DNA from: Candidatus Parcubacteria bacterium
Lineage (GTDB): Bacteria; Patescibacteriota; Minisyncoccia; UBA6257; HR35
Direction of reading: 5' to 3'
Length of the DNA: 64,000 bases
NCBI GenBank assembly: GCA_026004535.1
Contig: BPJI01000001.1
Coordinates: 233,491 to 297,490 of the forward strand
Below are positions 515-60,633 of the stretch, one piece after another (position 1 is the first letter of the stretch; every line of letters begins with the position of its first letter). Made by a program: the position numbers and the translations under genes. The notes under the pieces are model-generated. The model made no database searches and had not been told where the DNA came from. It worked only from the letters and a program-made list of their open reading frames with translations.

Positions 515-775
515 ATATAATTTACTACCCGGATTATAACCGGATATAATTACCCGGATTTAAATCAGATAGAGCTACCTGGATATAAACCGGATAATAC
601 TACCCGGATTTTTGCCGGATAAATTAGCCGGATGCAAACCGAATACAATTACCCGTATATAATCCGGATTTATCCGGTAATCATCCGGGTAAAATAATCC
701 GCTATTTATCCGGGTATATATATTTAATCCGGTGTTTATCCGGGTAGATATAATCCGGTGATCATCCGTGTAAAA
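515..775. repeat. CCGGAT-family palindromic tandem array (forward TACCCGGAT copies then reverse ATCCGGGTA copies, ~11-bp phase)
   Basis: Direct reading: about 11 forward copies (515-650) followed by about 9 reverse-complement copies (655-775). Intergenic between nifS-like and htrA-like genes. Confidence 0.9.
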
Positions 776-5906: not shown

Positions 5907-7790
5907 ATGAGAGAAAAAATAAGAAATTTTGCCATAATTGCTCATATTGATCATGGTAAATCAACTTTAGCTGATAGATTTTTGGAAATTACTGGAACTG
6001 TAAGTAAAGATAAATTAGTGCCTCAATATTTAGATAGACTTTCTTTGGAAAGGGAAAAGGGAATAACAATAAAGATGCAGCCAGTAACAATGGAATATCA
6101 AGGCTATATTTTGAATTTAATTGATACTCCTGGTCATATTGATTTTAATTATGAAGTTTCAAGAGCCTTAGCCGCAGTTGAAGGAGTAATTTTACTCATT
6201 GATGGAACTCAAGGTGTTCAAGCCCAGACAATTCATAATTTAGAATTAGCAAAAAAACAAAATTTAGTTATTATTCCTGCGATTAATAAAATTGATTTAG
6301 AAATTCACAATTTAGATGATCTACTTGAAGATATTTATAGATTAACAGGCGAAAGAGAGGTATATTTAATTTCGGCTAAATTAGGAACAGGAGCCGAGGA
6401 ATTATTAAAAGCAGTAATTGAAAAAATTCCTTTCCCAAACGGTTGTGAAAATTACCCAGATATAAACCAGATAAAATTACCCGGATATAAACCAGATAAA
6501 ATTAGTTATCAGGGCGATAATATATCCGGTTCTCATCCGGGTAATACATCCGGTCAACATCTGGGTAATATAGCAGGCAAAGCATTAGTTTTTGATTCTC
6601 ATTTTGATTCTTATAAAGGAATAATTGCCCATGTTAGAATTTTTGAGGGTGAATTTAGAAAATTTCAGGAAGCTTATCTAAGGCAAGCAAAATATAAATT
6701 TAAGATTCTAGAAGTTGGAATTTTTAAACCAGAACTCGAAGAAAAGGAAAAATTAGAATCAGGAATGATTGGTTATCTGGCTACTGGGATTAAAGATCCG
6801 GGAATTTTAAAAATTGGTGAGACAATAACTTTTGATTTAGATACCGAACCACTTTCTGGTTATCAGGAACCAAAACCAGTTGTTTTTGCTTCTGTTTTCC
6901 CTTCAACTAATATTAGTTTTGAAAATTTTGAAAATAGTTTAAAGAAATTTCAATTACAAGATCCTTCAATCTATTTAGAAAAGACAAACTCGCCATTTTT
7001 GGGCAAAGGCTATAATGTTGGAGCAATGGGGCTACTTCATTTAGAAATTTTTGAACAAAGATTAAAAAGAGAATTCCAAACTGATATTATTTTAACTTTA
7101 CCTTCAATTAGATATAAAGCAGTTTTAAAAAATAATCAAGAAGTTTTTATTATTAATCCAAATGAAATTGATTTAGCCCAAGTTTTATATTTTGAAGAAC
7201 CATTTATTGAAGTTGAAATATTTACGCCAATAACTTACAGTGAAAATATTTTTAGTTTAATTAGAAATTCAAGAGGAATAATAAAAAATCAAGTAGTTGA
7301 AGGAAGTTTTTTAAAAATTGTTACTGAAATGCCCTTAGAGGAATTAATTTCGGGATTTTATGATGAATTAAAATCAGTTTCTTCTGGTTATGCTTCATTA
7401 AGATGGCAATTTTTGGATTACCGAAAATCTGATTTAGTTAAATTAGATATTTTAATTGCTGAACAAACGGAGTCAAGCCTTTCAAGGATTATTCATCGAG
7501 ATAAGGCTGAAAAAATTGGCAGAAAAATTCTTTTAGAATTAAAAGAAAATTTGCCCCGAGAAGAATTTGCGATTAAATTACAAGCAGCAATTAATAATCG
7601 AATCATTGCCCGAGAAACTATTCCTGCTTTAAGAAAGGATGTTGCTGGTTGGCTTTACGGTGGTGATCGAACAAGAAAAATGAAATTATGGCAAAAACAA
7701 AAAGAAGGTAAGAAAAAATTACAAGAATTAGGCAAGGGTAAAGTAAAAATTCCTAATGATGTTTTATTAAAAATTTTAAAAGTTCGATGA
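5907..7790 (+). CDS. lepA: translation elongation factor 4 (LepA) carrying a ~40-aa in-frame repeat-derived insertion
   Basis: GTPase motifs AHIDHGKST, DTPGH, NKID. LepA C-terminal domain present. Residues ~185-228 are encoded by a CCGGAT-family array. Confidence 0.9.
   Translation: MREKIRNFAIIAHIDHGKSTLADRFLEITGTVSKDKLVPQYLDRLSLEREKGITIKMQPVTMEYQGYILNLIDTPGHIDFNYEVSRALAAVEGVILLIDGTQGVQAQTIHNLELAKKQNLVIIPAINKIDLEIHNLDDLLEDIYRLTGEREVYLISAKLGTGAEELLKAVIEKIPFPNGCENYPDINQIKLPGYKPDKISYQGDNISGSHPGNTSGQHLGNIAGKALVFDSHFDSYKGIIAHVRIFEGEFRKFQEAYLRQAKYKFKILEVGIFKPELEEKEKLESGMIGYLATGIKDPGILKIGETITFDLDTEPLSGYQEPKPVVFASVFPSTNISFENFENSLKKFQLQDPSIYLEKTNSPFLGKGYNVGAMGLLHLEIFEQRLKREFQTDIILTLPSIRYKAVLKNNQEVFIINPNEIDLAQVLYFEEPFIEVEIFTPITYSENIFSLIRNSRGIIKNQVVEGSFLKIVTEMPLEELISGFYDELKSVSSGYASLRWQFLDYRKSDLVKLDILIAEQTESSLSRIIHRDKAEKIGRKILLELKENLPREEFAIKLQAAINNRIIARETIPALRKDVAGWLYGGDRTRKMKLWQKQKEGKKKLQELGKGKVKIPNDVLLKILKVR
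6450..6580. repeat. CCGGAT-family palindromic array embedded in-frame in lepA
   Basis: attacccagat/attacccggat forward copies then atccggttct/atccgggtaat/atccggtcaa reverse copies. No stop codon in the lepA frame. Confidence 0.85.
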
Positions 7791-8866
7791 AGCTTTTAAT
7801 CCAAAAAGTAAAAGATGTAAGAATAGATGATAAAGATTACCCGGATAAGGACCAGATAGAGTCACCCGGATTTAAACCGGATATGATTAACTACCCGGAT
7901 AATAACCGGATAGAACTATCCGGATTTGAACCGGATAAAGTTAATCATCTACAAGATGAGAAACAAATAAAACTAATTTTGAGTGATTTAACAAATAAAA
8001 TCATAGGTATTTTATTTAAAGTACATAATATATTAGGTCCAAGCTTTAAAGAAGTACAATATAAAAAAGCAATAGAGGACGTTCTATTAAAGGAAAACAT
8101 AGATTTCAAAAAAGAAATCTCTGTCCATATAGATTTTAAATCATTTAAATTAAAAGATTTAAGAATTGATTTTATCATCGAAAATAAATTAATATTGGAA
8201 GTCAAGTCTAAGCCGTTTCTTACAAAAGAAGATATGAGACAAACTTTAAGATATTTAAAAGTTACAGATCTACCCCTAGCCATATTAGTCAATTTCAGAA
8301 GAAAAAAGTTAGAATACAAAAGAATAATAAATCCTGAAGTAATAGATAAATATAGCCCATCCGGTGAAAATCAGGGTAACCAATCTGGTAAACATCCGGG
8401 TAATAACATATCCGGTAATCATCCGGGTAATATATCCGGTTTTCATCCGTGTAATAACATATCCGGTTCTCATCCGGGTAAAATATCCGATAAATATCCG
8501 GGTAATAATTTATTATTAATTTATGTTGGGATTGAAAAAGGAGATGAAAATAAAAATTTAGAAGAAATTGTTAATTATTTAGAAAATTTACAAATTATTG
8601 ATGAAAATGGTAAATTTGCAAAAACAATGAAAGAAACAAAGCCTGTTTTTGTTTTTATTTCTAATATAACTTTATTAGCTGGGTTTGAAAAGGGAAGAAT
8701 AAATTTTAATCGAGCTTTAGAACCAAAATTAGCCAAAGAAATTTTCAAAAAATTAATCCAGGTTTTTAAAAATAAAGGTTATCAAGTTTTTTCTAAAGAA
8801 TTCGGCAGTTATTTAGAGATTACCTCCACTAATGTTGGTCCAATAAACTTTTATCTTCAAATTTAA
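7787..8866 (+). CDS. dtd: D-aminoacyl-tRNA deacylase reading frame interrupted in-frame by a ~670-bp composite element (fusion protein or inactivated gene)
   Basis: N-terminal MKLLIQKVKDV and C-terminal LLLIYVGIEKGDE..SNITLLAG..NVGPINFYLQI match Dtd motifs (MIALIQRV / LLVLLGVEKDD / SQFTLAAD / NDGPVTFWLQV). The 224 codons between them are repeat + GxxExxY module. ATGA overlap with lepA stop. Confidence 0.6.
   Translation: MKLLIQKVKDVRIDDKDYPDKDQIESPGFKPDMINYPDNNRIELSGFEPDKVNHLQDEKQIKLILSDLTNKIIGILFKVHNILGPSFKEVQYKKAIEDVLLKENIDFKKEISVHIDFKSFKLKDLRIDFIIENKLILEVKSKPFLTKEDMRQTLRYLKVTDLPLAILVNFRRKKLEYKRIINPEVIDKYSPSGENQGNQSGKHPGNNISGNHPGNISGFHPCNNISGSHPGKISDKYPGNNLLLIYVGIEKGDENKNLEEIVNYLENLQIIDENGKFAKTMKETKPVFVFISNITLLAGFEKGRINFNRALEPKLAKEIFKKLIQVFKNKGYQVFSKEFGSYLEITSTNVGPINFYLQI
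7838..8509 (+). mobile_element. composite element: forward CCGGAT array (7838-7948) + GxxExxY PD-(D/E)xK nuclease module (7949-8353) + reverse CCGGAT array (8354-8509)
   Basis: Terminal arrays are reverse complements of each other and belong to the same family as the cargo-less arrays elsewhere in the window. The whole element is stop-free in the dtd frame. Confidence 0.55.
7949..8353 (+). other. GxxExxY-family PD-(D/E)xK nuclease-like domain (no own ATG; in-frame with dtd)
   Basis: LTNKIIGILFKVHNILGPSFKEVQYKKAIEDVL..RIDFIIENKLILEVKSK..LRYLKVTDLPLAILVNFRRKKLEYKRII matches the GxxExxY consensus (E.LT..IIG..vH..LGpG.lEsvYe.AL..EL; D..v.....vELK; llnYlk.tg...gllINF). Confidence 0.65.
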
Positions 8867-25032: not shown

Positions 25033-25215
25033 GATTACCCGGATAAATACCGGATAGATTACCCGGATAACTAACCGGATTATTTTACCCGGATGATTAC
25101 CGGATAAATCCGGTTTATATCCGGTCTAAATCCGGGTAGTTGTATACGGTTTAAATCCGGGTAAATTCATCCGGGTGTACATCCGGGTAGTTCTATCCGG
25201 CTTATATCCGGGTAA
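25033..25215. repeat. CCGGAT-family palindromic array between rpsJ and rplC
   Basis: 7 forward TACCCGGAT/ACCGGAT copies then 8 reverse ATCCGG(G)T copies. Fills a 198-bp gap inside the S10 operon. Confidence 0.9.
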
Positions 25216-50465: not shown

Positions 50466-50536
50466 GGATAAAACACAATTAAAATTAACTCTGTTTTAGA
50501 TCATTTAAAGCGCGAGAACTCTGTTATAATTAAATT

Positions 50537-51719
50537 ATGAATAAAAAAATAAATAAATCCTTCACTTTAGTTGAACTTTTAGTTGTCTTAGCTCTAATAG
50601 CTATCTTAGCTACTGTCTTAATTGTTGTCATTAAGCCAGCAGATATCTTTAAAAGAGGTAGAGATAGTCAAAGAACTTCAGACCTTAAAAATCTTGAAAA
50701 AATATTTGACCTTATTCTTTTTGAAACTCAAGGCACCTTTTCTGAACTTCAATATGCTTCCTCAAATGTTGTCTATATCTCTCTTCCTGATACTTCATCA
50801 ACTTGTGGTCAATGGATAAGTCAATTACCACAGCTTCCTTCAGGCTGGTCATATAGATGCTCAGCAACTCCAACAAATATTGATGGTACTGGCTGGATTC
50901 CTATTCCTTTTAATCAATTTTCAAGCATTAATCTTTCTAGACTTTTCATTGATCCAATCAATAGACCTCCATATTACTATGCATTTGTTGCTGGAGGAAG
51001 TTATGCTCTCTATGCTCAATTAGAAAATCCTCAGTCTCAAGCCTCAAAAACAGACAATGATAATTATCCTCATCTATTTTCAGTAGGAACAAATAAAAGA
51101 CTCATTGATCAAGCTCAAGGACTTGTAGGGTATTGGTCTTTTGATGATTGGAATGGAAATATTGCTAATGATTATTCAGGAAACAATAATAATGGAACCT
51201 CTAGTTAATGGTCCTCAACTTGTGTTGATGGTAAAGTAGGTAAAGCTTTAAGTTTTGATGGAGTGGATGATTATGTGGAAATACCTTATAGTCCGAGTTT
51301 AAATCTTTCTGGCAATAGTGAATCTTGTTTTATGGATAAAACATACCAGTGCTGTTTATAATTGTCAAGCAAATCAATGGAGCAGAGGTTATTTTCCACT
51401 AGGTGGCACATCTGTTATGCATGGCTCAGAATACTTGGTATAGTATTAATCAATGGTAATGCCTAATGATGGTGCTTTATCATTTGGTTGGGTATACTAT
51501 ATTAAACATCAACCGTCAAATCATATAAAGATGGCGAATTTATAGCTCAGTACATCGCAGTAGTCCTGTATTATCCTGCTTCTTCTTATTGGATGGATGG
51601 CTAGGTATGTGTCGAGCTGTTGCACATTTATTTTTCAAGGTCTCATCGACGAAGTCCGCATCTATAATCGTGCTTTATCAGACCAAGAAATAAAAGCATT
51701 ATATGAAGCAACAAAGTAA
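50537..51719 (+). pseudogene. decayed paralog of pilin-LamG gene 58779..59963
   Basis: 5' ~600 nt ~99% identical to intact copy. Second ATG mutated (ATA). In-frame TAA at 51206 plus indels. Divergent but LamG-like middle (..DDYVEIPYSPSLNLSGNS..) broken by frameshifts. Conserved tail LIDEVRIYNRALSDQEIKALYEATK* at 51640-51719. Confidence 0.8.
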
Positions 51720-51824
51720 TCCCTCAGCTTCTCAGTTTCAAAGAAAATATCGGGGCATCGTATGTTCTCAATTTTTACTTTAGATAATATATAGTTTTCA
51801 TCATGGTATTAATATCCAGTACTA

Positions 51825-52005
51825 ATCCGGGTAGTATATCCGGTTTTCATCAGGATAATCTTATATACTTTCCATCATACTAATCTATCCGGTAATCATC
51901 CGGGTAATCTATCCGGTAATCATCCGGGTAATCTATCCGGTAATCATCCGGGTAACTATATCCGGTATTCATCCGGGTAGTATATCATGTTTCCATCAGG
52001 GTAAT
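51825..52005. repeat. CCGGAT-family array, reverse-orientation copies (3' module of pilin-LamG locus)
   Basis: tatccggtaatcatccgggtaatc x3 etc. Followed by ctact/agtag hairpin and ttttacgacctcgtacgtcgtaaag palindrome. Confidence 0.9.
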
Positions 52006-52102
52006 CTATAAATTTTTCATTTCTACTATCTAAATACGATCGTATTAAGTTAGGAGAAGTGAAATTTTACGACCTCGTACGTCGTAAAGTTAAAGTAAAA
52101 TA

Positions 52103-52180
52103 TATTGACGTGCGACGTCCCAAATATTAAATAATTCAAATCAATATATGGACGTCGCACGTCTTATTTGAACTCGAAAT
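52103..52180. repeat. REP-like palindrome GACGTGCGACGTCC..GGACGTCGCACGTC
   Basis: Arms of ~21 nt, loop ~18 nt. Related to palindromes at 38582-38640 and 61058-61120. Confidence 0.75.
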
Positions 52181-55636: not shown

Positions 55637-55885
55637 TACCCGGATATGAACCGGATAATACTACCCGGATATAGACCGGATAGAACTATCCGGATTATAA
55701 CCGGATAAGTTACTCGGATTTAAACCAGATTTATCCGGTAATCATCTGGGTAAAATAATCCGGTAGTTTATCCGGGTAATCTATCCGGTTGACTATCCGG
55801 GTAAATATTTTAATATCCGGTATTTATCCGGGTGAAATAATCCGGTAATCATCCGGGTAATTATATCCGGTAGATCATCAGGGTA
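55637..55885. repeat. CCGGAT-family palindromic array (forward 55637-55730, reverse 55735-55885)
   Basis: tacccggat x5 then atccggta/atccgggta x9. Lies between membrane-protein gene and rplU. Confidence 0.9.
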
Positions 55886-58711: not shown

Positions 58712-58778
58712 CTTCCAAGCTTCTCAGTTTCCAGACTTTCGGGCTTCTTAGTTTATGTTATTATGTTATAATTAAATT

Positions 58779-59963
58779 ATGAATAAAAAAATGAATAAAT
58801 CCTTCACTTTAGTTGAACTCTTAGTTGTCTTAGCTCTAATAGCTATCTTAGCTACTGTCTTAATTGTTGTCATTAAGCCAGCAGATATCTTTAAAAGAGG
58901 TAGAGATAGTCAAAGAACTTCAGACCTTAAAAATCTTGAAAAAATATTTGACCTTATTCTTTTTGAAACTCAAGGCACCTTTTCTGAACTTCAATATGCT
59001 TCCTCAAATGTTGTCTATATCTCTCTTCCTGATACTTCATCAACTTGTGGTCAATGGATAAGTCAATTACCACAGCTTCCTTCAGGCTGGTCATATAGAT
59101 GCTCAGCAACTCCAACAAATATTGATGGTACTGGCTGGATTCCTATTCCTTTTAATCAATTTTCAAGCATTAATCTTTCTAGACTTTTCATTGATCCAAT
59201 CAATAGACCTCCATATTACTATGCATTTGTTGCTGGAGGAAGTTATGCTCTCTATGCTCAATTAGAAAATCCTCAGTCTCAAGCCTCAAAAACAGACAAT
59301 GATAATTATCCTCATCTATTTTCAGTAGGAACAAATAAAAGACTCATTGATCAAGCTCAAGGACTTGTAGGGTATTGGTCTTTTGATGAAGGAACTGGAA
59401 ATATTGCTAATGATTATTCAGGAAACAATAATAATGGAACACTCTATAATGGTCCTCAATGGGTTGATGGTAAAGTAGGCAAAGCTTTAAGTTTTGATGG
59501 AGTGGATGATTATGTCCAGACACCGTTATCCTCTAACATATTACCCCTAACAATTGAAGTATGGTTTAAAACAAATGTTAATACTGGGGAACATTCTATT
59601 GTTGATAGCGACGTCAGTGGGCGCTATGGGCAATCAATTATATTGGGCTATATGTATGGGGATAATACCTTAGACGTAGAATATCATGATGGATGGTATG
59701 ATTCTCCTTTTGTTGTTGGGGTAGGAGTTTGGCACCATGCGGTTGCAATTTTTACGACAGGGAAAGTGGAACTTTATGTAAATGGTAATTATATTGGTTC
59801 ACTAGTATTTACACAAGGATTCCTAGATGGAGATAATTTTAGAATCGGTAGGCACAATTCGGGCGACCCACAATGGTTCAATGGTCTCATCGACGAAGTC
59901 CGCATTTACAATCGCGCTTTATCAGATCAAGAAATTAAAGCATTATATGAAGCAATAAAGTAA
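58779..59963 (+). CDS. type IV pilin-like protein with C-terminal LamG-like (concanavalin A-like lectin) domain; only intact member of 3-copy family
   Basis: Prepilin-type N-terminus MNKKMNKS|FTLVELLVVLALIAILA with Glu+5. C-terminal LamG hallmark GLIDEVRIYNRALSDQEIKALY. Extended -10 TGTTATAAT at 58764-58772. Confidence 0.8.
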   Translation: MNKKMNKSFTLVELLVVLALIAILATVLIVVIKPADIFKRGRDSQRTSDLKNLEKIFDLILFETQGTFSELQYASSNVVYISLPDTSSTCGQWISQLPQLPSGWSYRCSATPTNIDGTGWIPIPFNQFSSINLSRLFIDPINRPPYYYAFVAGGSYALYAQLENPQSQASKTDNDNYPHLFSVGTNKRLIDQAQGLVGYWSFDEGTGNIANDYSGNNNNGTLYNGPQWVDGKVGKALSFDGVDDYVQTPLSSNILPLTIEVWFKTNVNTGEHSIVDSDVSGRYGQSIILGYMYGDNTLDVEYHDGWYDSPFVVGVGVWHHAVAIFTTGKVELYVNGNYIGSLVFTQGFLDGDNFRIGRHNSGDPQWFNGLIDEVRIYNRALSDQEIKALYEAIK

Positions 59964-59985
59964 TTCCTCAGCTTCTCAGCTTCAA

Positions 59986-60012
59986 AGAAAATATCGGGAC
60001 ATCGTATGTCCT
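59986..60012 (+). terminator. short hairpin + T-tract after pilin-LamG gene (also present after both pseudogene copies)
   Basis: GGGACATCGTATGTCC then TCAATTTTT. Confidence 0.4.
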
Positions 60013-60064
60013 CAATTTTTACTTTAGATAATATATAGTTTTCATCATGGTATTAATATCCAGT

Positions 60065-60225
60065 ACTAATCCGGGTAGTATATCCGGTTTTCATCAGGAT
60101 AATATTATATACTTTCCATCATGCTAATATATCCAGTATTCATCCGGGTAATCTATCCGGTAATAATCCGGGTAACTATATCCGGTAATAATCCGGGTAG
60201 TATATCATGTTTCTATCGGGATAAC
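60065..60225. repeat. CCGGAT-family array, reverse-orientation copies (3' module of pilin-LamG locus)
   Basis: tatccggtaataatccgggtaactatatccggtaataatccgggtagtat. Followed by ctact/agtag hairpin. Confidence 0.9.
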
Positions 60226-60633
60226 CTATAAATTTTTCATTTCTACTATTTAAATACGATCGTATCAAGTTAGTAGAAGTGAAAAAAAAATTTCTTTTTG
60301 TGCCATAATTAAGACATGGTAAAAGTAGTAGAAAGGCAAAGGAAAAATAGATTGGTATTTAAAAAAATTGGATGTTTTGGCAAAAGTTTGCTTCTGGTTG
60401 GAGGAAGAAAAGAATTATCGATCCTCTAAAGTGGCAAAAAAAATTAGAAGTGAAAAATAAACTTGATGTTCCTTTTTGATACTAATTTTTTAATCTATTA
60501 TCTTAATTCATTAGTTCATTAATTTCCAATGAATGAGCTCTGGATTCAATATTAAAAGGATTCAATATTAAAATAACCCGGAATTCGTAATTCGGGACTA
60601 AAGAATTTTTGAATTTTATGTTATAATTTAAAT

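What the first reader, a model, noticed from the sequence alone, without database searches (positions are those of the whole stretch)
7787..8866. dtd interrupted in-frame by a repeat-flanked GxxExxY PD-(D/E)xK nuclease element
The 359-aa ORF is a chimera. Residues 1-17 and the last ~119 residues align to Dtd, including the MIALIQRV-type start, the SQFTLAAD-like SNITLLAG and the NDGPVTF-like NVGPINFY active-site motifs. The 224 codons between them comprise: a forward CCGGAT tandem array; a complete GxxExxY-family PD-(D/E)xK domain (GPSFKEVQY; IDF..EVK; LAILVNF) lacking its own start codon; and the reverse-complement CCGGAT array. The terminal arrays are inverted repeats of each other and belong to the same family as the cargo-less arrays elsewhere. 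Every part is stop-free in the dtd frame. This looks like an autonomous copy of a mobile element whose nonautonomous (MITE-like) derivatives are the palindromic arrays. It appears to insert into, or be tolerated inside, a protein loop: the insertion point is the beta1-beta2 region of Dtd.
Basis: partly seen in the sequence, partly recalled or inferred. Interest (0 to 1): 0.92.

Follow-up and report, generated by a model that had tools for sequence, protein, structure and literature searches.

The report
Nuclease-carrying palindromic element inside dtd
The D-aminoacyl-tRNA deacylase gene of this Parcubacteria genome is interrupted, in frame and without stop codons, by a selfish repeat-bounded DNA element that encodes a small nuclease, and the same kind of element sits unspliced inside dozens of other housekeeping proteins, something I found described in no paper I could search.

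Summary
ORF 7787..8866 (359 aa) is Dtd residues 1-16 and 232-359, split by a ~648-nt insert. The insert is a forward CCGGAT array, a complete GxxExxY/PDDEXK_3 nuclease module with no start or stop codon, and a reverse ATCCGG array.

Two syntenic relatives (lepA-dtd) have uninterrupted 142-143-aa Dtd that is 71-81% identical to the spliced sequence, so this is an insertion.

The same unit family forms eight more arrays in the window, one of them in frame in lepA. A DNA-alignable copy of the whole element sits in enolase of another Parcubacterium.

Across about 75 loci, GxxExxY genes are flanked by inverted short-unit arrays (30/44 free-standing genes versus 0/170 controls). Array sequence co-varies with nuclease sequence.

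About 44 of the 150 best family representatives are longer than 200 aa. All 30 that I scanned combine PDDEXK_3 with a host family (GatB, enolase, LepA, RecG, DHFR, transketolase, AsnB, GT1/GT2 and others).

Catalytic residues are conserved (dN/dS about 0.1). AlphaFold keeps the Dtd fold and predicts disordered array-encoded linkers.

Best reading: a REPIN/RAYT-like or homing-like selfish element that is translated through. That the nuclease is the mobilising enzyme is inferred, not shown.

The parts
7787..8866 (+). Chimeric ORF, 359 aa: Dtd interrupted by the element. Its start overlaps the lepA stop (ATGA).
   Evidence: An identical protein, P0001, is on a 556,583-bp contig of Candidatus Parcubacteria bacterium KatS3mg096.
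7787..7834 (+). Dtd N-terminal segment, residues 1-16 (strands beta1 and beta2).
   Evidence: Aligns to residues 1-15 of 26 uninterrupted Dtd proteins. The AF2 model has strands at 2-8 and 11-13 with pLDDT 85.
7835..8482 (+). The insert as a whole: about 648 nt, 216 codons, boundaries +/- 6 nt.
   Evidence: Absent from the syntenic dtd of L001 and L005 (DNA alignment; protein alignment).
7835..7942 (+). Left array of 8 forward CCGGAT units. It is translated as YPD / PGFKPD / NRI and forms a disordered linker.
   Evidence: pLDDT is below 50 for residues 17-55.
7943..7984 (+). Inner left junction. There is no start codon where free-standing homologues begin. An in-frame TTG lies at 7979-7981.
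   Evidence: No promoter excess was found.
7985..8329 (+). GxxExxY / PDDEXK_3 nuclease module, residues 67-181. Conserved catalytic residues are E89 (8051-8053), D128 (8168-8170), E138 (8198-8200), K140 (8204-8206), Q152 (8240-8242) and Y156 (8252-8254).
8330..8358 (+). Inner right junction (NPEVIDKYSP). There is no stop codon.
8359..8509 (+). Right array of 8 reverse ATCCGG units, translated as SGxHPGN. The last two units (about 8483-8509) occupy the position of native Dtd loop sequence.
   Evidence: pLDDT is below 50 for residues 147-203 and 205-229, which cover this array.
8480..8866 (+). Dtd C-terminal segment, residues 232-359, with the SNITLLAG and NVGPINF motifs.
   Evidence: pLDDT is 85-96. 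Foldseek matches solved Dtd structures, with target-normalised TM-score (TMt) 0.64-0.71. dN/dS is 0.18-0.19.
6452..6569 (+). Cargo-less palindromic array of the same family, in frame inside lepA. It adds 32 residues.
529..758 (.). Cargo-less palindromic array, intergenic.
25039..25211 (.). Cargo-less palindromic array between rpsJ and rplC.
   Evidence: The DNA hairpin has dG -54.6 and z = -9.6.
55640..55870 (.). Cargo-less palindromic array upstream of rplU.
40027..40252 (+). One-direction array of the same units, part of a triplicated segment downstream of pilin-like genes. The other two copies are at 51825-51976 and 60069-60196.

Best explanation
A selfish DNA element has inserted, in frame, into the beta2-beta3 hairpin of dtd.

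Anatomy: the element is a palindromic array of short units (core CCGGAT, spaced alternately 11 and 13-14 nt). At the centre of the palindrome sits a gene for a minimal RecB/Cas4-like PD-(D/E)xK nuclease (GxxExxY) that has lost its own start and stop codons.

Expression: the whole element is transcribed and translated as part of Dtd. The two arrays encode Pro/Gly/Ser/Asn-rich disordered linkers. These let the folded nuclease hang off a surface hairpin while the Dtd core reassembles.

Relation to other arrays: cargo-less palindromic arrays of the same units elsewhere in the genome, including one in frame in lepA, are the element without its nuclease.

Most likely mechanism (inferred): the nuclease recognises or cuts its cognate units, the palindrome centre, or the extruded cruciform. 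Recombinational repair using another array as template then copies arrays, with or without cargo, into broken sites. That would be a homing-like process, or a REPIN/RAYT-like division of labour between one nuclease gene and many arrays. Only copies that preserve the reading frame survive in essential genes.

Shown: the insertion against empty sites; the anatomy; the family-wide link between gene and arrays; co-variation of nuclease and array; the in-frame host range; purifying selection.

Inferred: nuclease activity, its target, and that it drives mobility.
For: Insertion:
- The spliced Dtd is 81% and 71% identical, at full length, to 143-aa and 142-aa Dtd proteins.
- The same lepA-dtd synteny holds in L001-L005, which lack the insert.
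- L001 has no CCGGAT at all in 8.4 kb.

Anatomy and pairing.

Same element in another host gene: L086 enolase aligns at DNA level across arrays, junctions and module.

The dtd and enolase modules form a clade consisting only of embedded copies (NJ tree).

Cargo and cargo-less forms share sites:
- GatB sites in L013 and L014, and enolase site A in P0004/P0008 against P0002.
- In L014 the cargo-less array centre keeps the first 3 nt and last 2 nt of the cargo junctions.

Family-wide association with arrays:
- 30 of 44 free-standing GxxExxY genes have a flanking inverted-repeat score of 30 or more, against 0 of 170 shifted control intervals (Mann-Whitney p = 1.6e-23).
- Cargo-less arrays with the same core occur nearby in at least 8 other genomes.
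- Nuclease identity correlates with array 7-mer similarity (Spearman 0.28; 0 of 500 permutations reached it). Paralogues within the same genome have unrelated arrays.

Host range: about 44 of the top 150 representatives are longer than 200 aa. All 30 that I scanned combine PDDEXK_3 with a host family (GatB, enolase, RecO, DHFR, RecG, transketolase, P-type ATPase, AsnB, M50 protease, LepA/GTPases, GT1, GT2, hydrolase, RuvC, thioesterase). Most have host sequence on both sides of the module; a few are terminal fusions or N-terminally cut.

Selection: E, D, ExK and QxxxY are invariant in 11 embedded modules. Module dN/dS is about 0.1 and Dtd dN/dS about 0.18.

Structure.

Reading frames: none of the five long intergenic arrays has any open frame across it, and the sixth has only a 55-codon one. 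Every intragenic array is open in the host frame.
Against: - No nuclease activity, cut site or transposition event has been observed. The link between nuclease and mobility rests on association only.
- There is no clear target-site duplication, only a GATAAA on both sides.
- Arrays within the window are only 74-85% alike and differ in unit number. They are not recent copies of one fixed element and may partly grow in situ.
- The relative HR35 carries a single unit-like sequence exactly at both empty sites (lepA CACCCGGATA, dtd TATCCAAATAAC). This fits seeding, target preference or a deletion footprint equally well.
- Only one nuclease copy is visible in 64 kb, and the rest of the genome could not be read.
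- RecB/Cas4-like nucleases are usually end-processing enzymes, not sequence-specific endonucleases.
- The 359-aa product has not been shown to exist or to retain Dtd activity.
Confidence: 0.6

Rival explanations
1. Passenger model. The palindromic arrays are created, expanded and spread by some other process, such as replication slippage, fold-back repair at the self-complementary CCGG core, or an unidentified enzyme. The GxxExxY gene is cargo that lodges in palindrome centres, for example as an addiction or defence nuclease, and has no role in array mobility.
For: - Arrays vary by whole units between near-identical segmental copies.
- Arrays in the window are diverged from one another.
- Most arrays have no cargo.
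- Solo units lie at the empty sites in HR35.
- The fold class is usually an end-processing nuclease.
Against: - Array sequence co-varies with nuclease sequence. Two paralogues in one genome have different arrays.
- The gene sits at the palindrome centre in nearly every locus examined.
- There is no PADLOC hit.
- Catalytic residues are kept even in copies that can only be expressed as fusions.
Confidence: 0.22
2. Domesticated domain fusion. The nuclease domain was recruited by Dtd for a new host function, and the repeats are just linkers.
For: The ORF is intact. Both parts are under purifying selection and both are predicted to fold.
Against: - The closest Dtd relatives lack the insert.
- The same module, with the same kind of arrays, sits in at least 15 functionally unrelated host families and also occurs free-standing.
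- The linkers are DNA palindromes of a dispersed repeat family.
Confidence: 0.06
3. The insert is removed before or after translation, or the gene is dead. The possibilities are RNA-level excision through the long array stem (as with IVS or introns), protein splicing, or a pseudogene.
For: The arrays form a long stem around the module (z = -8), like the stems of rRNA intervening sequences.
Against: - Removal at the RNA level would not select for frame or for absence of stops. Yet every embedded copy I inspected is open and in frame (GatB, enolase and seven further hosts read by eye), while the intergenic arrays are closed in essentially all frames.
- There is no Hint/intein domain and no conserved junction nucleophile.
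- The Dtd part keeps all family-invariant residues and has dN/dS 0.18.
- None of 20 GxxExxY loci lies in rRNA.
Confidence: 0.06
4. Assembly or binning artefact that joined unrelated sequences.
For: The source is a metagenome-assembled genome, and the repeats are assembly-hostile.
Against: - The insert is exactly in frame on both sides, within a 556-kb contig.
- Analogous structures occur in many independent assemblies and samples.
Confidence: 0.01

Closest known systems
Rickettsia palindromic elements (RPEs)
   Same: Both are palindromic repeats inserted in frame into unrelated housekeeping genes. Both are translated as extra peptide segments that are compatible with the host fold (review PMC10969869, read). 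The cargo-less arrays in lepA and in the MurD-, TruB- and SfsA-like genes behave this way.
   Different: RPEs are roughly 150-bp elements of fixed families with no associated enzyme gene. Here the palindromes are variable tandem arrays of 11-14-nt units, and some carry a complete nuclease module at their centre. Sequence homology to RPEs was not tested.
REPIN / RAYT systems
   Same: In both, a gene is flanked by inverted copies of a repeat that is also dispersed through the same genome as cargo-less hairpin-forming doublets. The enzyme and its repeat are cognate. I saw one enzyme gene in 64 kb, and no paralogue above about 60% identity was found in the protein database (PMC3116915 and PMC3337134, listed).
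   Different: RAYTs are HUH/Y1 (IS200/IS605-like) transposases, whereas this enzyme is a PD-(D/E)xK RecB/Cas4-like nuclease. REPs are extragenic 20-40-nt hairpins, whereas these are multi-unit arrays that also live inside ORFs. The enzyme gene itself can be embedded in frame in a host protein.
Inteins carrying homing endonucleases
   Same: Both are nuclease-encoding selfish inserts that lie in frame within conserved housekeeping proteins, often next to conserved motifs. Empty alleles exist in relatives.
   Different: There is no Hint splicing domain and no conserved junction nucleophiles. The insert is apparently kept in the mature protein and tolerated through disordered linkers. It is bounded by DNA palindromes.
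PD-(D/E)xK homing endonucleases (e.g. I-Ssp6803I) and free-standing homing endonuclease genes (from my own knowledge)
   Same: These are small PD-(D/E)xK nucleases that could promote their own spread through cleavage followed by recombinational repair.
   Different: Neither cleavage nor a defined target is known here. The fold is closest to Cas4/RecB-type nucleases with a QxxxY motif. The flanking unit arrays have no counterpart in those systems.
MITE / IS pairs
   Same: Both have inverted terminal sequences, with short cargo-less derivatives outnumbering the coding copy.
   Different: There is no DDE or other recognised transposase, no clear target-site duplication, and no fixed element length or ends.

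Membership tests
D-aminoacyl-tRNA deacylase (Dtd; PF02580 / TIGR00256) | Profile match above the curated cutoff. | tested here: met
   Pfam gives 67.7 bits against a cutoff of 25, covering profile 26-143/144. The NCBIfam equivalog gives only 58.8 bits against a cutoff of 101.5, because the first 25 positions are separated by the insert. The spliced sequence is 81% identical over 100% of its length to a 143-aa Dtd.
D-aminoacyl-tRNA deacylase (Dtd; PF02580 / TIGR00256) | Conserved motifs, Dtd fold and genomic context. | tested here: met
   All 25 columns that are invariant in 26 relatives are kept, including SNITL and NxGPxNF. The AF2 core matches solved Dtd structures with target-normalised TM-score (TMt) 0.64-0.71. 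The lepA-dtd overlap synteny is conserved.
D-aminoacyl-tRNA deacylase (Dtd; PF02580 / TIGR00256) | Deacylase activity of the interrupted protein. | not testable with these tools
   Only indirect evidence: dN/dS 0.18-0.19.
GxxExxY protein / PDDEXK_3 (TIGR04256, PF13366) | Full-length profile match above cutoff. | tested here: met
   TIGR04256 matches 1-116/116 at 98.5 bits (cutoff 35). PF13366 matches 2-117/117 at 97.4 bits (cutoff 22).
GxxExxY protein / PDDEXK_3 (TIGR04256, PF13366) | PD-(D/E)xK catalytic residues and restriction-endonuclease-like fold. | tested here: met
GxxExxY protein / PDDEXK_3 (TIGR04256, PF13366) | Nuclease activity and substrate. | not testable with these tools
   The family function is listed as 'Unknown' in PMC3424549. 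There is no solved structure by sequence.
MITE / IS-type transposon | Terminal inverted repeats. | tested here: met
   The arms at 7835-7942 and 8359-8509 are complementary.
MITE / IS-type transposon | Target-site duplication and defined, fixed-length copies. | tested here: not met
   Only a GATAAA on both sides. Arrays differ in unit number and are 74-85% alike.
MITE / IS-type transposon | Recognised transposase (DDE, HUH, serine or tyrosine). | tested here: not met
   The only domain in the insert is PDDEXK_3.
RPE-like in-frame palindromic elements | A palindromic repeat inserted in frame in unrelated ORFs and absent from orthologues. | tested here: met
   Seen in dtd and lepA here, against L001 and L005. 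Also seen in MurD-, TruB- and SfsA-like genes and a membrane protein on related contigs.
RPE-like in-frame palindromic elements | Sequence homology to the Rickettsia RPE families. | not tested
   No RPE sequences were compared. The organism and the unit structure are different.
REPIN / RAYT | An enzyme gene flanked by inverted copies of the genome's dispersed repeat. | tested here: met
   Shown in the window. Shown in other genomes. Co-variation is shown.
REPIN / RAYT | The enzyme is an IS200/IS605-type Y1 (HUH) transposase. | tested here: not met
   The enzyme is a PD-(D/E)xK fold, not HUH.
Intein | Hint splicing domain and junction nucleophiles. | tested here: not met
   No Hint or intein model was hit. 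The junctions are repeat-encoded and differ between copies.
Homing endonuclease gene | Empty and occupied alleles of the same site. | tested here: met
   Shown for dtd, for GatB and enolase sites, and for GTPase profile position ~65 in three clusters.
Homing endonuclease gene | The enzyme cleaves the empty site. | not testable with these tools
   This needs biochemistry.
rRNA intervening sequence (IVS) ORF | Located within a 23S or 16S rRNA helix. | tested here: not met
   There is no rRNA in the window or in 20 GxxExxY loci.

The most novel reading that the evidence does not exclude
GxxExxY proteins are the enzymes of a previously unrecognised, widespread class of prokaryotic selfish elements. 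Each element is a nuclease gene nested at the centre of a palindromic array of cognate short units. The elements propagate by nuclease-triggered repair. One of their niches is the interior of essential proteins, where they persist as unspliced, translated inserts. They would occupy the same evolutionary niche as inteins without any splicing chemistry, and they would add folded domains and disordered linkers to housekeeping proteins in bacteria with very small genomes, such as this Parcubacteria lineage.
Probability: 0.4. Interest if true: 0.9.

Novelty: new variant of a known kind. Interest (0 to 1): 0.82.

Why it matters
- It would assign a biological role to a large family of unknown function. 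PF13366/TIGR04256 has 5,521 representative clusters at E <= 1e-3.
- It would explain the origin of many odd low-complexity and extra-domain insertions in proteins of this Parcubacteria lineage and its relatives.
- It would show that a nuclease-encoding parasite can live inside essential proteins without splicing, using repeat-encoded disordered linkers.
- It would give a natural catalogue of permissive domain-insertion sites in enzymes such as Dtd, GatB, enolase, LepA, RecG and DHFR.
- The cognate pairs of nuclease and short unit are a testable set of possibly programmable DNA specificities. The window's core CCGGAT and the enolase site-B core CCGAAT differ by one base.

Tried and rejected
- A joint MAFFT alignment of Dtd and GxxExxY homologues to the chimera misaligned the nuclease sequences. 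I used two separate structure jobs instead.
- The third homologue search, run with the module profile, returned only free-standing proteins among its best 120 hits and did not show the host range. The exhaustive representative search did.
- The metagenome scan for the array pattern gave mostly single chance matches. Only 7 low-GC contigs carried real arrays, all of them cargo-less.
- There were no relatives in viral contigs, no PADLOC hit, only an unannotated PHROG, and no PDB sequence match.
- Rfam found no RNA family at the element and no rRNA context.
- There was no promoter excess inside the ORF.
- Literature searches for GxxExxY, PDDEXK_3, PF13366, TIGR04256 and in-frame palindromic insertions in CPR/Patescibacteria found no functional description.
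- Rejected readings: intein (no Hint domain), IVS (not in rRNA), classical MITE (no fixed ends, no target-site duplication), artefact (recurs in many assemblies).

Full report
**1. The observation**

The window is AT-rich (30% G+C). Its 359-aa ORF is identical to a hypothetical protein of the MAG Candidatus Parcubacteria bacterium KatS3mg096, on a 556,583-bp contig.

ORF 7787..8866 (+) exists as described and overlaps the stop codon of lepA. Profile searches split it cleanly:
- PDDEXK_3 covers residues 67-180 (profile 2-117/117, E 9e-28).
- TIGR04256 GxxExxY matches 1-116/116 at 98.5 bits, against a cutoff of 35.
- Tyr_Deacylase covers residues 243-357, which is profile positions 26-143 of 144.

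Forward CCGGAT units lie at 7841-7936 and reverse ATCCGG units at 8359-8501. They are complementary arms. ATCCGG occurs 103 times in the window, against 10.4 +/- 3.4 expected. Unit spacing alternates between 11 and 13-14 nt.

**2. It is an insertion**

A spliced Dtd (residues 1-17 joined to the C-terminal part) is 81% identical over 100% of its length to a 143-aa Dtd. It is 71% identical to the 142-aa Dtd of bacterium HR35. Twenty-seven further relatives of 114-176 aa have no PDDEXK_3 domain.

Both closest relatives share the lepA-dtd arrangement with overlapping stop and start. Protein and DNA alignments place about 216 extra codons between RIDDK and ISDKYPGNNLLLIY.

The window's LepA also carries a 32-residue cargo-less palindromic array that both relatives lack. 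L001 has no CCGGAT at all in 8.4 kb.

HR35 has a single unit-like sequence exactly at each empty site: CACCCGGATA in lepA and TATCCAAATAAC in dtd. The lepA one is the only forward CCGGAT in its 8.4 kb. This could mean target preference, seeding or a deletion footprint. I cannot tell which.

**3. Structure and selection**

With a Dtd alignment, AlphaFold2 gives a confident Dtd core (residues 1-13 and 242-358, block pLDDT 85-96). This core matches solved Dtd structures (2dbo, 1j7g, 1jke; target-normalised TM-score 0.64-0.71). The array-encoded segments, residues 17-55 and about 181-229, have pLDDT below 50. The insert therefore leaves the hairpin between the second and third strands.

E, D, ExK and QxxxY are invariant in 11 embedded modules. 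In this ORF they are E89, D128, E138, K140, Q152 and Y156.

dN/dS is about 0.1 for the module against the enolase copy, and 0.18-0.19 for the Dtd part against its relatives.

The two arrays pair in the predicted RNA fold (z = -8.0). A cargo-less array folds as a DNA hairpin with z = -9.6.

**4. The element family**

*In this window.* The same units form palindromic arrays at 529-758, 6452-6569 (lepA), 25039-25211 (between rpsJ and rplC) and 55640-55870. They form one-direction arrays at 40027-40252, 51825-51976 and 60069-60196.

*Same element in another gene.* The closest module homologue (60% aa identity) sits in the enolase of another Parcubacterium. There it has the same CCGGAT arrays. The two elements align at DNA level across arrays, junctions and module.

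*A sister group.* Another group sits at a second enolase site. It has the same architecture, but its unit core is CCGAAT, one base different from CCGGAT. In P0004 and P0008 a cargo-less array occupies the site where P0002 has the cargo element.

*GatB inserts.* In the genome collection, the nine best module matches are all embedded in GatB, at three different sites. They are flanked by TCGAAT-type inverted arrays, and cargo-less arrays lie at those same sites in other genomes. In L014, the cargo-less array centre retains the first and last few bases of the cargo junctions.

*Phylogeny.* An NJ tree shows the dtd/enolase modules and the GatB modules as two embedded-only clades. The RecJ and glycosyltransferase fusions arose separately.

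**5. A family-wide property**

Free-standing GxxExxY genes are also bracketed by inverted arrays of short units. The cores include NCGAAT, GCTAAT, CTAATCTAC and CACAGAT.
- 30 of 44 such genes have an inverted-repeat score of at least 30.
- None of 170 shifted control intervals reaches that score (p = 1.6e-23).
- Cargo-less palindromic arrays with the same core lie nearby in at least eight other genomes.
- Nuclease identity correlates with array 7-mer similarity (Spearman 0.28; 0 of 500 permutations reached it).
- Divergent paralogues in one genome have unrelated arrays.

**6. Host range**

An exhaustive search of 1.84 billion representatives found 5,521 family members at E <= 1e-3. About 44 of the best 150 are longer than 200 aa.

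All 30 that I scanned combine PDDEXK_3 with a host family. The hosts are GatB, enolase, RecO, DHFR, RecG, transketolase, P-type ATPase, asparagine synthase, M50 protease, LepA and other GTPases, GT1, GT2, an alpha/beta hydrolase, RuvC and a thioesterase. Most have host sequence on both sides of the module. A few are terminal fusions or are cut at the N-terminus. In the seven sequences I read, six show repeat-encoded peptides on both sides of the module. The seventh (P0251) is less clear on its right side.

Three GTPase clusters carry the module at the same profile position (about 65), just before the DTPGH motif.

Related low-GC metagenome contigs carry cargo-less CCGGAT arrays in frame in MurD-, TruB- and SfsA-like genes and in a membrane protein. 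They are always read as LPGxKPD / SGxHPGN.

Five of the six intergenic arrays in the window have no open frame across them in any of the six frames. The sixth has only a 55-codon open frame. This argues that the intragenic copies are translated and filtered by selection. It argues against removal at the RNA level.

**7. Interpretation**

*Shown:*
- an in-frame insertion of a repeat-bounded nuclease element into a surface hairpin of Dtd
- an obligate association of this nuclease family with cognate inverted unit arrays
- cargo-less derivatives
- recurrent in-frame residence in essential proteins

*Inferred:*
- the nuclease acts on its units, the palindrome centre or the cruciform
- repair copies arrays, with or without cargo, into new sites (homing-like or REPIN/RAYT-like)
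- the fusion protein is made and Dtd still works

*Main uncertainty:* whether the nuclease drives mobility or is merely a passenger of palindromes that grow by other means. Unit-number variation between near-identical copies and the divergence among arrays show that in-situ dynamics exist.

**8. Comparison with known systems and novelty**

It works like Rickettsia palindromic elements in being an in-frame palindrome (PMC10969869). It works like REPIN/RAYT in pairing an enzyme with cognate dispersed hairpins (PMC3116915 and PMC3337134). It occupies the niche of inteins.

It fails the defining features of each:
- there is no HUH transposase
- there is no Hint domain
- there are no fixed ends and no target-site duplication

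The family's function is listed as unknown (PMC3424549). No paper describing this arrangement was found.

I rate it a new variant of known kinds. There is a substantial chance that it represents a new class of selfish element.

Noticed in passing
window 6452-6569 (inside lepA 5907..7790): A cargo-less palindromic CCGGAT array lies in frame in LepA and adds 32 residues. It is absent from the syntenic LepA of L001 and L005. HR35 has a solo CACCCGGATA at exactly that site.
   Followed up: yes
window 25039-25211; 55640-55870; 529-758: Palindromic arrays lie inside or next to ribosomal-protein operons: between rpsJ and rplC, and upstream of rplU. Another lies before an HtrA-like protease gene. Their effect on transcription and translation is unknown. 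They fold as strong hairpins.
   Followed up: partly
window 38726-40340, 50522-52064, 58764-60284: There are three paralogous type-IV-pilin-like genes (N_methyl + Laminin_G_3). Their first ~750 nt are 98% identical, the middle is divergent, and the conserved 3' end is followed by a one-direction unit array. Only the third is a full 394-aa ORF. The arrays differ by whole units (about 84-98 nt). This looks like a cassette or variable surface-protein family.
   Followed up: partly
window ~40345-40365 and ~52068-52090, 52115-52165: GC-rich perfect palindromes (ACGACGTCGTACGTCGT, GACGTGCGACGTC...GACGTCGCACGTC) follow the pilin-associated arrays. This is a second, unrelated repeat type.
   Followed up: no
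P0025 (Dtd of another organism; alignment A1): A different, GC-rich in-frame insert (PASPSPASRPVSRQGGQSGQGGLGG) occupies the same beta2-beta3 hairpin of Dtd, and a second insert sits in another loop. The hairpin therefore seems to be a generally permissive site.
   Followed up: no
P0007 / P0008 enolases (L087 3726-5486): Besides the GxxExxY element, these enolases contain further in-frame repeat peptides (TDLRGYNADERGYF..., TQTETDF...). They probably come from yet another unit family.
   Followed up: no
L128 2412-3311 and L151 3704-4621 (reverse-strand coordinates; SfsA-like orthologues): L128 carries two in-frame arrays of two different unit families (a CCGGAT type and a type read as YPNKEPN / FGHNSG). 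Its orthologue in L151 carries a CCGGAT array at the other site.
   Followed up: partly
P0262, P0303, P0289 (GTPases): Three clusters, each differing by more than 50% in sequence, have the nuclease module inserted at the same GTP_EFTU profile position (~65), immediately before DTPGH. This suggests either site-specific homing next to conserved motifs or an old shared insertion.
   Followed up: partly
P0010 and about 14 hits of ~265 aa: Tandem double GxxExxY proteins (two modules in one ORF) are common among family representatives.
   Followed up: no
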